Positions 33,001 to 36,000 of a stretch of DNA of 46,690 bases are shown here, in pieces. Position 1 is the first letter of the stretch; every line of letters begins with the position of its first letter. The stretch lies in IMG/VR virus record IMGVR_UViG_2718218402_000006. One strand, given 5' to 3'. Made by a program: the position numbers. The stretch is from a virus. Its lineage: Duplodnaviria > Heunggongvirae > Uroviricota > Caudoviricetes.

Positions 33001-36000
33001 TGAGCTGATTCTGCCGGCCGGAACTCTCAGGCTTAAAGGTAAACTGACGCCGGCGTTATTACAGACACTTATCCGCGAAATGAAAGGGAGCAGCCACTGA
33101 TGATATCTCTCCCTGCCGGTTCTCTGGGATGTGATGTGTCAGAGCAACTGGAGCTTATCAGCAGCGCCTTTAAGGTTATCGAAACACAACGTCCGAAACT
33201 GGCCTGTTGCCGGTGCGACCATATCGTGCAGGCACCGGTGCCTTCAAAACCCATTGCACGCAGTTATGCCGGAGCGGGGCTCCTGGCCCATGTCGTCACC
33301 GGAAAATATGCAGACCATCTGCCGTTATACCGCCAGTCAGAGATATACCGCCGTCAGGGTGTGGAGCTGAGCCGTGCCACACTGGGGCGCTGGACTGGTG
33401 CCGTTGCTGAACTACTGGAGCCGCTGTATGACGTCCTGCGCCAGTATGTGCTGATGCCCGGTAAAGTCCATGCTGATGATATCCCCGTCCCGGTCCAGGA
33501 GCCGGGCAGCGGTAAAACCCGGACAGCCCGGCTGTGGGTCTACGTCCGTGATGACCGTAACGCCGGTTCACAGATGCCCCCGGCGGTCTGGTTCGCGTAC
33601 AGTCCGGACCGGAAAGGTATCCATCCACAAAATCACCTGGCCGGTTACAGCGGTGTGCTTCAGGCCGATGCTTACGGTGGTTACCGGGCGTTATACGAAT
33701 CCGGCAGAATAACGGAAGCCGCGTGTATGGCTCATGCCCGGAGAAAAATCCACGATGTGCATGCAAGAGCGCCCACCGACATCACCACGGAAGCCCTGCA
33801 GCGTATCGGTGAACTGTATGCCATCGAGGCAGAGGTCCGGGGCTGTTCAGCAGAACAGCGTCTGGCGGCAAGAAAAACCAGAGCCGCGCCACTGATGCAG
33901 TCACTGTATGACTGGATACAGCAACAGATGAAAACACTGTCGCGTCACTCAGATACGGCAAAAGCGTTCGCATACCTGCTGAAACAGTGGGATGCACTGA
34001 ACGTGTACTGCAGTAATGGCTGGGTGGAAATCGACAACAACATCGCAGAGAACGCCTTACGGGGAGTGGCCGTAGGCCGGAAAAACTGGATGTTCGCGGG
34101 TTCCGACAGCGGTGGTGAACATGCGGCGGTGTTGTACTCGCTGATCGGCACATGCCGTCTGAACAATGTGGAGCCAGAAAAGTGGCTGCGCTACGTCATT
34201 GAACATATCCAGGACTGGCCGGCAAACCGGGTACGCGATCTGTTGCCCTGGAAAGTTGATCTGAGCTCTCAGTAAATATCAATACGGTTCTGACGAGCCG
34301 CTTACGGAGTAAGGAAGCCTAACGGAGATTATCCAGTGACGATAATCGAGGCTGAGGGCTTTCTTAATCTCGTATCCGTGTCTGCGGTAACACTGAATCA
34401 GCCATTCGGCCTGTTCTTCAGTGCATGGAGGGTGTTGGTACCAGTCGGTTTTAAATACGCGAGAACGCCGCCCATGCCTGCTGGCACGAACGGCATCAGA
34501 ATTGTGATTTTTGGTATTGTGCGCCATTTGTTTTCTCTGCTGGCGCAGCAGGTGCCAGTTGTTCAGGCTGGCGTGCGAATTGTAAACCAGAATGCCAGGA
34601 AAAAACAAAACCCGCCGAAGCGGGTTAAGTGCGGGTGCGTTGAGGATGCCTGACACATCAGAGGTGGCGAGGGATTCTCCCCCGCCTGGTCTCTTACTCC
34701 TCAGGTTCGTAAGCTGTGAAGACAGCGACCTCCGTCTGGCCGGTTCGGATTCGTACCTCGCAGAGGTCTTTCCTCGTTACCAGTGCCGTCACTATGACGG
34801 TTAAACAGATGACGATCAGGGCGATTAACATCGCCTTTTGCTGCTTCATAGCCTGCTTCTCCTTGACCTTTCGGTCCGTAAGAGGCAATCTATATGTGAC
34901 GAGCATATAGGGGCCTCACTTCGATTTATAGTCGGGTGGGGCTTTTATCTATCTGCCGTTGGTGTTCATGCCCGAGGCAGATAGCCTCAAGCACCCGCAG
35001 CAATTCTACTTAACTCTGCCGTTACAGCAAACCGTTTTCGCCCGATATGGGAATTCCCATATCGGAATGAATTCAGTTCACCTGGCGAGGCTTAGCGTAC
35101 AATTTTTTCCGTTTTGTGAGCTGCCCCTACATGCCGCTGGCGCGGCATCCGGAAAAAGAATCCACGTCCTGAAGGACGTGGAGGATGTCAAGTGCCTTTC
35201 CTGGTCCAGCCATATTTTTTGAATGCAGGCGCCGCTTCATCGGTTTGTAGCCATTCTGCAAATCGACGGGTTTCATCATTTGCATCCTGACGTACTGTAA
35301 TGTTCATATCACGCCATATCACGTAGTCTGGCGCTATTTCCACGACATCACCAATTTCTGGATTACTGGCTGCCCAGTCAGCCCAGGTTATCCAGACATC
35401 TGCTCCAGGCTGATTCTCAAGAGCCTTACGTGCAGTTCCGCTATTGGGCGCATATAAAATAATATTTTTTCGGATTGCGGCGACAGTTTCTATATTCCCT
35501 TTACGTCCGGCAATATCTTCCCAGACGCCAGTGCCTGATGTATTACTGGTACCACCACCATCATTAACAATTACGCCAATCCCGGGTCTGGTCAGGTCGT
35601 CAATACTCCGGATATTTTTAGGATTACCTTTCTTTACCAGTAAAATACTTTTTCGCAGATAAAGAGGCTGAATATCTTTTTCACTGAAGCTGTCTTTATG
35701 GTCCCGAATGATAGCCAGAGCAGATTGTTCTGATGCGCCAAACAAGATATCTGCATTTTTTTTGGCATCTTCATTCCATTTGTTCTGTGGACCGTAATGC
35801 ACGTTCACTATAACACCTGTTTTTTCGGCATAAAGTTTGGCTGCTTCAAGCAAGGCTGTATGCGGGCCACCAGGACCATACAGATTGATATCAGCATAAG
35901 CAGCAGAAGACAGGAATATTAAAAAACCTGCCATTATGTTCCTCATAAAAAACTCCTTTTATTGGTTATCATGAAATAAAATTATAAACACTACAAATAA

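What the first reader, a model, noticed from the sequence alone, without database searches (positions are those of the whole stretch)
34694..35152. hok-type type I toxin locus next to the binding-protein gene
A canonical 51-aa Hok toxin ORF is present; the upstream leader (34850-35150) should contain the overlapping mok frame and an antisense sok-like RNA on the plus strand. Whether the antitoxin RNA promoter and fold-back elements are intact determines if the locus is active or silent.
Basis: partly seen in the sequence, partly recalled or inferred. Interest (0 to 1): 0.45.

Follow-up and report, generated by a model that had tools for sequence, protein, structure and literature searches.

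The report
Intact prophage hokD/mok/sok toxin-antitoxin locus
This is an ordinary, already well-known kind of small bacterial "killer gene plus antisense RNA antidote" module (hok/sok). It sits complete inside a resident virus of E. coli, next to the adhesin gene paa, and is the full-length form of the gene that survives only as a stump (hokD/relF) in laboratory E. coli K-12.

Summary
Window 34694-34849 (-) encodes a 51-aa Hok/Gef toxin (Pfam 1.2e-23) identical to E. coli HokD.

All sequence elements of a hok/mok/sok type I toxin-antitoxin locus are present and undamaged:
- a conserved hok -10 box
- the 5' tac element
- ucb
- the mok Shine-Dalgarno sequence and the in-frame 70-aa mok ORF
- the Sok target hairpin
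- the hok Shine-Dalgarno sequence
- the 3' fbi element
- a terminator
- on the + strand, a ~57-nt Sok RNA (34896-34952) with its own promoter

The Rfam "sok" model hits at 103.9 bits. It hits the hok-sense strand because it actually models the hok mRNA leader. Forty homologous loci from six genera support the fold by covariation, including the tac-fbi pairing.

They omit the 3' UTR (fbi and terminator, 34600-34693). The leader ends at 34996, not 35150. The "binding protein" is the adhesin Paa.

The locus lies in the nin region of a lambdoid, Qin-like prophage. About 12% of complete E. coli genomes and several deposited phage genomes carry it. K-12 hokD keeps only 34601-34863.

Whether the locus is active cannot be read from sequence, but no disabling lesion was found. 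Verdict: already known; low interest.

The parts
34694..34849 (-). hok ORF (51 aa plus stop), protein identical to E. coli HokD/RelF
   Evidence: ORF list. Pfam PF01848 at E = 1.2e-23. RefSeq annotation hokD, WP_000813254, at 100% DNA identity.
34694..34906 (-). mok ORF (70 aa), in frame with hok and sharing its stop, as in K-12 mokC
   Evidence: ORF list. K-12 mokC and hokC have the same layout. The mok ATG is conserved in 37 of 40 homologous loci; the exceptions are decayed copies.
34600..34996 (-). Predicted full-length hok mRNA (~397 nt). The 5' end is inferred, not mapped.
   Evidence: The Rfam model starts at 34996. BLAST homology to 38 loci starts at nt 1 and typically ends at nt 364, the end of fbi. 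Fold energy -165.8 kcal/mol, z = -6.5. Covariation over 40 loci.
35003..35008 (-). hok promoter -10 box TAGAAT, 6 nt before the tac G. A weak -35-like TTGCTG lies at 35025-35030.
   Evidence: Read from the sequence. A GTAGAAT, GTATAAT or GTATATT box sits at the same distance from tac in nearly all 40 loci. It falls below the threshold of the generic scan.
34985..34996 (-). tac element (GGGUGCUUGAGG, mRNA nt 1-12)
   Evidence: Pairs with fbi in the full-length fold and with ucb in the truncated and nascent folds. Helices 1 and 2 are 90.6% and 86.5% paired over 40 loci, with a compensatory U-A to C-G change in 8 Photorhabdus loci.
34938..34944 (-). ucb / anti-SD (AAGCCCC, mRNA nt 53-59)
   Evidence: Pairs with the mok SD region in the full-length fold and with tac in the 3'-truncated fold. 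Column entropy 0.07 bits over 40 loci.
34914..34917 (-). mok Shine-Dalgarno GAGG (mRNA nt 80-83), 7 nt before the mok AUG
   Evidence: for the position. Entropy 0.04 bits.
34890..34910 (-). Sok target (sokT) hairpin: the stem holds the mok AUG; the 7-nt loop CUCGUCA begins with a YUNR-type motif (CUCG)
   Evidence: Minimum-energy fold. The loop is complementary to the single-stranded 5' tail of Sok. The loop is the most variable leader segment, 0.96 bits.
34859..34864 (-). hok Shine-Dalgarno AAGGAG (mRNA nt 133-138)
   Evidence: Entropy 0.06 bits.
34896..34952 (+). Predicted Sok antisense RNA (~57 nt; ends uncertain by a few nt). Fully complementary to hok mRNA nt 45-101, covering the mok SD and AUG.
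   Evidence: K-12 sokC, sokB and sokE annotations all map here through alignment A1. Fold: 11-nt free 5' tail, hairpin, U-rich tail, z = -4.2. Sok-stem helix 93.3% paired, 4 of 9 pairs compensatory.
34863..34891 (+). Sok promoter: -35 TTGACC (34863-34868), 17-bp spacer, -10 CAATCT (34886-34891)
   Evidence: Read from the sequence. Aligned with K-12 sokC (TTGACC/17/CACTCT) and with Sp5 sokW (TTGCCT/17/TAACCT). Indels in the two boxes covary so that the spacer stays 17 bp. Not found by the generic scan.
34633..34645 (-). fbi element (CCUCAACGCACCC, mRNA nt 352-364)
   Evidence: Pairs with tac (duplex -21.5 kcal/mol; minimum-energy fold). Covaries with tac. Lies outside the finding's coordinates.
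34600..34626 (-). hok intrinsic terminator (stem 34609-34626 plus T-run)
   Evidence: Terminator scan. Identity to most other E. coli genomes ends at 34601, right after the T-run, which marks a module boundary.
34709..34711 (-). Tyr47 codon UAC within an invariant UACGAA: the candidate TadA A-to-I editing site (Tyr to Cys)
   Evidence: T286 to A291 are invariant in all 40 loci. Editing at this position is reported for hokC, hokD and hokE mRNAs in bioRxiv 10.1101/2025.08.07.668861. Not tested here.
35188..35946 (-). Neighbouring gene paa (AcfC-family adhesin, SBP_bac_11 fold), with its own terminator at 35161-35182. It is a neighbour, not part of the TA module.
   Evidence: Pfam, RefSeq annotation, terminator scan.

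Best explanation
The locus is a complete hok/mok/sok type I toxin-antitoxin module of the hokC/hokD/hokW subgroup. It is carried as a 'moron' in the nin region of a lambdoid (Qin/PPompW-like) prophage, immediately downstream of paa.

1. A weak constitutive promoter (-10 TAGAAT) makes a ~397-nt hok mRNA.
2. In the full-length RNA, the 5' tac element pairs with the 3' fbi element, and ucb masks the mok Shine-Dalgarno sequence. The RNA is therefore neither translated nor bound by Sok.
3. Slow 3' trimming removes the terminator and fbi.
4. tac then pairs with ucb. This frees the mok SD and exposes the sokT hairpin.
5. While the convergent promoter keeps making the short-lived ~57-nt Sok RNA, Sok's free 5' tail docks on the sokT loop. 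The resulting duplex covers the mok SD and AUG, and the mRNA is presumably destroyed by RNase III.
6. If Sok synthesis stops, mok is translated and hok is translated with it. Here mok is an in-frame N-terminal extension of hok.
7. The 51-aa membrane peptide then depolarises or permeabilises the inner membrane.
8. An invariant UACGAA at Tyr47 suggests TadA editing to Cys, which would tune toxicity.

The biological role in the prophage is not established for this allele. Candidates are prophage maintenance, help with lysis on induction as shown for Sp5 hokW-sokW, and exclusion of other phages.
For: Shown here:
- Hok/Gef domain at E = 1.2e-23, protein identical to HokD.
- Full-length Rfam leader hit at 103.9 bits.
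- mok ORF with SD.
- Sok position from three independent K-12 annotations and its canonical fold.
- tac-fbi pairing in the minimum-energy fold, z = -6.5.
- The 3'-truncated RNA refolds into a tac-ucb stem with the mok SD released, as described for R1 in PMC9841398.
- Over 40 loci from Escherichia, Shigella, Kluyvera, Pseudocitrobacter, Photorhabdus and Erwinia, 86.4% of cells are paired against 41-45% for slid controls, and 43 pairs carry compensatory changes, reached by 0 of 500 shuffles.
- tac, ucb, both SDs and the mok AUG are near-invariant.
- There are no differences from the O103:H2 12009 allele in any functional element.
- The Sok promoter is of the same class as K-12 sokC, and K-12 mokC/sokC double-stranded RNA is detected in vivo (PMC7373196).
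- The 92%-identical HokW with sokW is an experimentally working TA pair (PMC8621323).
- Prophage context.
Against: - No expression data exist for this allele.
- The Sok -10 box (CAATCT) and the hok -35 box are poor consensus matches, and the generic sigma-70 scan found no promoter in the region.
- Transcript ends are inferred by homology, not mapped.
[quoted passage not shown] Anatomical intactness therefore does not guarantee killing activity.
- The structure used for the covariation test was derived from the window's own minimum-energy fold, which inflates the contrast with the slid controls.
Confidence: 0.93

Rival explanations
1. The locus is anatomically complete but functionally silent. 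It would be a domesticated or decaying chromosomal hok copy that never produces toxic levels of Hok, like the K-12 hok loci, with no role in the prophage.
For: - Literature summary that chromosomal hokA, hokB and hokC loci did not give post-segregational killing.
- Weak consensus of the Sok -10 and hok -35 boxes, and no promoter called by the scan.
- Decayed copies exist among the relatives, for example Shigella L062 and E. coli L064, which have an ACG mok start and frameshifts.
Against: - Every element is intact and identical to the common allele.
- Purifying selection is visible as compensatory changes and near-invariant SD, tac and ucb elements.
- The close homologue hokW-sokW is active and affects phage release.
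- The HokD peptide is identical to the K-12 RelF/HokD peptide, which I recall from the literature to be toxic when expressed (from memory, not checked in a paper read here).
Confidence: 0.25
2. It is only a stand-alone hok ORF without its RNA regulators, as at K-12 hokD, where the gene is the third cistron of relBE-hokD.
For: The protein is identical to K-12 HokD, and RefSeq annotates only the hokD CDS, with no mok or sok.
Against: - K-12 homology covers only 34601-34863.
- The window has the whole 147-nt leader, which K-12 lacks.
- No relBE lies upstream; paa with its own terminator is there instead.
Confidence: 0.02
3. The antitoxin RNA is encoded on the minus strand at 34847-34996, as a literal reading of the Rfam 'sok antitoxin' hit would suggest.
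For: The Rfam RF01794 hit, typed 'Gene; antitoxin', is on the minus strand.
Against: - The hit begins with the tac sequence and ends at the hok AUG.
- At K-12 hokC, hokB and hokE and at Sp5 hokW, the same model always hits the hok-sense strand, opposite to the annotated sokC, sokB, sokE and sokW.
- The + strand scores only 16.7 bits.
Confidence: 0.02

Closest known systems
hok/mok/sok (parB) of plasmid R1, the founding type I toxin-antitoxin system
   Same: The parts list and order are the same: tac, ucb, mok SD, sokT hairpin, overlapping mok and hok, fbi, terminator, and a convergent Sok with a free 5' tail plus hairpin. The predicted switch from full-length to truncated RNA is also the same (model in PMC9841398).
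   Different: - The toxin is distant: HokW, which is 92% identical to this Hok, is 44% identical to R1 Hok according to PMC8621323.
- mok is in frame with hok here.
- The location is a chromosomal prophage rather than a plasmid.
- The Sok -10 box is weaker.
- Post-segregational killing has not been shown.
E. coli K-12 hokD (relF), third gene of relBE-hokD in the Qin prophage
   Same: The 51-aa protein is identical, and the DNA is 98.5% identical over 34601-34863, including fbi and the terminator. Both sit in the same prophage neighbourhood: upstream of rem/DUF968/Q, with DicF nearby.
   Different: K-12 lacks everything upstream of 34863: the promoter, tac, ucb, the mok start, sokT and the Sok gene. 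relBE replaces them. The window carries the undamaged ancestral arrangement, with paa upstream.
hokW-mokW-sokW of Stx2 prophage Sp5/933W (E. coli O157:H7 Sakai)
   Same: Hok is 92% identical. The leader aligns from the promoter to fbi, and tac and fbi are identical. RF01794 scores 113.5 bits on it. It is prophage-borne and experimentally shown to be a working TA pair that promotes phage release (PMC8621323).
   Different: - The Sok hairpin is 21 nt longer in hokW.
- The Sok 5' tail and sokT loop differ: GUGACGAGCAU here against GUGUUCAGCAU.
- The Sok promoter is of a different class (TTGCCT/17/TAACCT).
- The terminator differs.
- It sits near the right prophage end, not in the nin region.
E. 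coli K-12 hokC-mokC-sokC (gef)
   Same: Hok is 82% identical. mok is in frame. The Sok promoter class is the same (TTGACC/17/CAnTCT) and tac is the same.
   Different: In K-12, IS186 sits 19 bp after the hokC stop and displaces fbi. The window has fbi and the terminator in place; its nearest insertion sequence is ~295 bp beyond the terminator.

Membership tests
[quoted passage not shown] | Small (~50 aa) Hok/Gef-domain membrane toxin | tested here: met
   PF01848 at E = 1.2e-23, covering profile positions 1-42 of 42. Aligns with HokA, B, C, E and W, with invariant M1, C15, T17, L29, E31 and E40.
[quoted passage not shown] | hok mRNA 5' leader with the conserved sequence and structure (Rfam RF01794) | tested here: met
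   103.9 bits against a gathering score of 59, model positions 1-157 of 157, on the hok-sense strand.
[quoted passage not shown] | Overlapping upstream mok reading frame with its own SD, to which hok translation is coupled | tested here: met
   70-aa ORF at 34694-34906, with GAGG 7 nt upstream. The ATG and SD are conserved in the homologues. The coupling itself is not testable with these tools.
[quoted passage not shown] | Long-range 5' tac / 3' fbi pairing that closes the full-length mRNA | tested here: met
   nt 1-12 pair with nt 352-364 in the minimum-energy fold. Duplex energy -21.5 kcal/mol. 87-91% paired over 40 loci, with compensatory changes.
[quoted passage not shown] | ucb masks the mok SD in the full-length RNA; tac-ucb pairing forms after 3' truncation | tested here: met
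   Predicted folds of the full-length RNA against nt 1-351. This is thermodynamic prediction only.
[quoted passage not shown] | Convergent cis-antisense Sok RNA (~55-70 nt) covering the mok SD and AUG, with a free 5' tail, a hairpin and a U-tail, and its own promoter | tested here: met
   Position taken from the sokC, sokB and sokE annotations. Fold. Promoter boxes conserved by class. Transcription itself is not testable here.
[quoted passage not shown] | YUNR (U-turn) motif in the target loop recognised by the Sok 5' tail | tested here: inconclusive
   The window loop CUCGUCA starts with CUCG, which fits YUNR. The motif is short, however, and is found in only 28 of the 40 related loci.
[quoted passage not shown] | 3' exonucleolytic processing, RNase III cleavage of the duplex, unstable Sok against stable hok mRNA, and killing when Sok is lost | not testable with these tools
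   Needs Northern blot with rifampicin chase, rnc mutants and plasmid-loss assays.
K-12-type hokD (relBE-hokD operon form) | hok cistron fused downstream of relBE, without leader, mok or sok | tested here: not met
   The leader is present, and homology with K-12 starts only at 34863. The locus shares the protein name HokD but not the K-12 locus architecture.
hokW-sokW (Sp5) allele | Same Sok RNA and target sequence, i.e. a cross-reacting antitoxin | tested here: not met
   There is a 21-nt indel in the Sok hairpin and 4 differences in the 11-nt recognition tail. It is a homologue, not the same specificity allele.

The most novel reading that the evidence does not exclude
The module lies in the delayed-early rightward operon, in the same orientation: replication genes, then paa, hok, DUF968, RusA and Q. 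Antiterminated read-through during prophage induction could therefore run over the convergent Sok promoter and silence it by transcriptional interference. It would also produce 5'-extended hok transcripts that cannot form the tac-closed state. The locus would then act as a built-in induction sensor that speeds up lysis, a mechanistic explanation for the RecA-dependent loss of sokW seen in Sp5. The 19-nt Sok-like segment upstream (35116-35134) could modulate such read-through transcripts in cis.
Probability: 0.1. Interest if true: 0.4.

Novelty: already known. Interest (0 to 1): 0.1.

Why it matters
There is little that is new. hok/sok is the textbook type I toxin-antitoxin system, and prophage-borne copies are documented. 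RefSeq already annotates this exact sequence as hokD, and deposited phage genomes annotate it as "gef: phage maintenance protein".

The check has three practical uses:
- It shows that public annotation of this allele names only the toxin CDS and leaves out mok and Sok.
- It shows that Rfam's 'sok' family reports the hok-sense leader, which can mislead strand assignment.
- It documents the intact form of the locus from which the truncated K-12 hokD derives.

If the locus is active, it could affect the stability or lysis timing of paa-carrying prophages in pathogenic E. coli.

Tried and rejected
- **Generic promoter scan.** The sigma-70 scan of 34500-35250 found no promoter. The promoters were therefore assigned by homology and conservation, not by consensus score.
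- **Six-protein Hok alignment.** A three-protein alignment worked.
- **Locating hokW.** It was not in the first 30 kb of VT2-Sakai. It lies near the right end.
- **NCBIfam.** The Hok models hit below their cutoffs. The HokD name comes from the RefSeq annotation of the exact protein.
- **Solved structures.** None is related.
- **Possible inverted relic of a second hok leader.** It lies upstream at 35116-35134. Only 19 nt are similar, and 4 of 300 shuffles do as well. I treat it as marginal.
- **YUNR motif.** It is present in the window but too degenerate to count as evidence.
- **Insertion sequence inactivation.** I checked whether the nearby insertion sequence inactivates the locus as in K-12. 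It does not: the insertion is ~295 bp beyond the terminator.
- **Sp5_hokW row in A5.** It was entered 24 nt short at its 5' end by my coordinate slip. It contributes gaps only at tac.
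Full report
**1. What is in the sequence**

On the minus strand, 34694-34849 is a 51-aa ORF: MKQQKAMLIALIVICLTVIVTALVTRKDLCEVRIRTGQTEVAVFTAYEPEE.
- It matches Pfam Hok/Gef over the whole profile at E = 1.2e-23.
- A 641-bp query around it is 100% identical to several complete E. coli chromosomes. RefSeq annotates the CDS there as "type I toxin-antitoxin system toxin HokD" (WP_000813254) and the upstream gene as "AcfC family adhesin Paa".
- A 70-aa ORF at 34694-34906 extends hok upstream in the same frame and to the same stop. K-12 mokC relates to hokC in the same way.

Rfam RF01794 matches 34847-34996 end to end at 103.9 bits against a gathering score of 59.

**2. Strand of the Rfam hit**

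The hit is on the hok-sense strand. It starts with GGGUGCUUGAGG and ends at the hok AUG.

At K-12 hokC, hokB and hokE and at Sp5 hokW, the same model always hits the hok-sense strand, opposite to the annotated sokC, sokB, sokE and sokW RNAs. The + strand of the window scores only 16.7 bits.

RF01794, though named "sok antitoxin", therefore models the hok mRNA leader, which contains the complement of Sok. The hit must not be read as the antitoxin gene's strand.

**3. Anatomy**

Coordinates are window coordinates; mRNA nt 1 is 34996.

| Element | Position | Note |
|---|---|---|
| hok -10 box TAGAAT | 35003-35008 | 6 nt before the tac G; an equivalent box sits at the same distance in nearly all 40 related loci |
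| hok -35 box | about 35025-35030 | weak |
| tac | nt 1-12 | |
| ucb AAGCCCC | nt 53-59 | |
| mok SD GAGG | nt 80-83 | |
| mok AUG | nt 91-93 | |
| sokT hairpin | nt 87-107 | loop CUCGUCA |
| hok SD AAGGAG | nt 133-138 | |
| hok AUG | nt 148 | |
| hok stop | nt 301 | |
| fbi CCUCAACGCACCC | nt 352-364 (34633-34645) | |
| terminator | 34609-34626 plus T-run | |

On the + strand, the K-12 sokC, sokB and sokE annotations all project through alignment A1 onto 34896-34952.
- That 57-nt RNA folds into an 11-nt single-stranded 5' tail, a long hairpin and a U-rich tail, z = -4.2.
- It is perfectly complementary to hok mRNA nt 45-101, which covers the mok SD and AUG.
- Its promoter is TTGACC (34863-34868), a 17-bp spacer, then CAATCT (34886-34891).

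The finding's interval therefore omits the fbi and terminator part. Its upper ~155 bases are not leader. They are the hok promoter, a spacer with a perfect 24-bp palindrome (35042-35065) and the tail of the paa terminator (35161-35182).

**4. Are the fold-back and antitoxin elements intact?**

*Predicted folds*
- The full-length RNA has a minimum-energy fold of -165.8 kcal/mol, z = -6.5. It pairs nt 1-12 with the fbi element and pairs the ucb region with the mok SD region.
- Removing the 3' end (nt 1-351) makes tac pair with AAGCCCC (ucb) and releases the mok SD.
- This is the closed-to-open switch described for R1 hok mRNA (PMC9841398).

*Comparative evidence*
- I fetched 54 related loci and aligned 40 non-identical ones from Escherichia, Shigella, Kluyvera, Pseudocitrobacter, Photorhabdus and Erwinia.
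- BLAST homology to the window's mRNA begins at nt 1 and typically ends at nt 364, the last base of fbi. The conserved unit is thus bounded by tac and fbi.
- I projected the window's fold onto the alignment. 86.4% of cells are paired, against 41-45% when partners are slid. 43 pairs carry changes on both sides, which 0 of 500 shuffles reach.
- The tac-fbi helix is 87-91% paired, with a U-A to C-G swap in 8 Photorhabdus loci.
- The Sok-stem helix is 93% paired, with 4 of 9 pairs compensatory.
- The slid controls are flattered because the structure came from one of the sequences. The compensatory-pair counts are the more robust measure.
- Column entropy is near zero for ucb, both SDs and the mok AUG. 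It is highest in the sokT loop and Sok tail, as expected for a specificity determinant.

*Sok promoter*
- The generic scan found no promoter.
- Alignment shows two promoter classes. The hokW class is TTGCCT/17/TAACCT. The hokC class is TTGACC/17/CAnTCT.
- One-base indels in the -35 and -10 boxes covary so that the spacer stays 17 bp.
- The window belongs to the hokC class. K-12 mokC/sokC double-stranded RNA is among the abundant RNase III substrates captured in vivo (PMC7373196), so this promoter class fires.
- Compared with the O103:H2 12009 allele, the window differs only at two positions upstream of the promoter, at one base in a 3'-UTR loop, and in the terminator T-run.
- I found no disabling lesion.

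**5. Context**

The locus is in a lambdoid prophage. The gene order is repressor/Cro-like genes, replication genes, DUF1627, a fimbrial pseudogene, paa, hokD, a small hypothetical gene, DUF968, RusA and the Q antiterminator. DicF and STnc100 are nearby.

Deposited phage genomes (PPompW and Stx2a-converting phages) carry it at 99.3% identity, annotated "gef: phage maintenance protein". The paa-hokD arrangement covers at least 80% of the query in 665 of 5,426 complete E. coli genomes.

K-12's hokD in Qin is homologous only over 34601-34863. relBE replaces everything upstream, including tac, the mok start, sokT and Sok. The window thus holds the undamaged form of the locus that K-12 keeps as a stump.

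Relative to strain Z1322HEC0005, the window has a 1.9-kb IS66-like element at 32371-34304, about 295 bp beyond the hok terminator. It interrupts the next small gene, not hok. None of the complete genomes shares this junction.

**6. Mechanism and function**

The mechanism is given under Best explanation. It is inferred from R1 hok/sok and supported here by anatomy, thermodynamic prediction and covariation. Transcription, processing, RNase III cleavage and killing are not shown.

The closest experimentally studied relative is hokW-sokW of Sp5 (Hok 92% identical).
- It behaves as a type I TA pair.
- It loses sokW on mitomycin C treatment in a RecA-dependent way.
- It doubles phage release (PMC8621323).

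Its Sok hairpin, recognition tail and promoter class differ from the window's, so cross-protection is not expected.

Tested chromosomal hokA, hokB and hokC loci did not give post-segregational killing (summary in bioRxiv 10.1101/2025.08.07.668861). I therefore put about 0.25 on the locus being intact but phenotypically silent.

The invariant UACGAA at Tyr47 fits the TadA editing reported for hokD.

**7. Verdict**

The feature is a known member of a textbook family, it is already annotated at least as the toxin CDS, and it is widespread. Novelty: already known. Interest: 0.1.

Noticed in passing
window 32371-34304: A 1.9-kb IS66-like (ISCro1-family) element is inserted here relative to strain Z1322HEC0005. 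It carries a TnpA accessory ORF (32423-33100) and a transposase ORF (33100-34275). It splits the small hypothetical gene downstream of hok, about 295 bp past the hok terminator. None of 5,426 complete E. coli genomes has this junction.
   Followed up: partly
window 35042-35065: A perfect 24-bp palindrome, CCGATATGGGAATTCCCATATCGG, lies between the paa terminator and the hok promoter. It is outside the conserved hok module and absent upstream of hokW and hokC. It could be a protein-binding site; its function is unknown.
   Followed up: no
window 35116-35134: A 19-nt stretch resembles the mok SD-AUG segment of the hok leader in inverted orientation, so a Sok-like sequence sits on the hok-sense strand upstream of the hok promoter. 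It is found only in the paa-hokD arrangement and is statistically marginal: 4 of 300 shuffles score as well.
   Followed up: partly
window 34847-34996 (-); also L004, L005, L007, L010: Rfam RF01794, 'sok antitoxin (CssrC)', consistently matches the hok-sense mRNA leader (157 nt, ending at the hok AUG). It does not match the annotated antisense Sok RNAs. Strand calls based on this family are inverted with respect to the antitoxin gene.
   Followed up: yes
window 34706-34711 (-): UACGAA (Tyr47-Glu48 of Hok) is invariant in all 40 aligned hok loci across six genera. This fits the TadA A-to-I (Tyr to Cys) editing site reported for hokB, hokC, hokD and hokE.
   Followed up: partly
window 34601: Identity to most other E. 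coli genomes and to K-12 stops immediately after the hok terminator T-run. Identity to K-12 begins at 34863, inside the Sok -35 box and hok SD. The hok module therefore behaves as a recombination cassette with sharp boundaries.
   Followed up: partly
window 29106-29278 (-) and 42105-42156 (+): Rfam hits to the sRNAs STnc100 (100.8 bits) and DicF (76.7 bits) are consistent with a Qin/Rac-like lambdoid prophage background.
   Followed up: no
loci L020, L030, L036, L063 (genome contigs): Hok loci nearly identical to E. coli's appear in assemblies labelled Veillonella parvula MAG, Acinetobacter idrijaensis, Xanthomonas pisi and 'Candidatus Scatousia'. The last three are on very short contigs (275-2,995 bp) and the Veillonella one is on a 22.9-kb MAG scaffold. 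This probably reflects contamination or mis-binning rather than true hosts.
   Followed up: no
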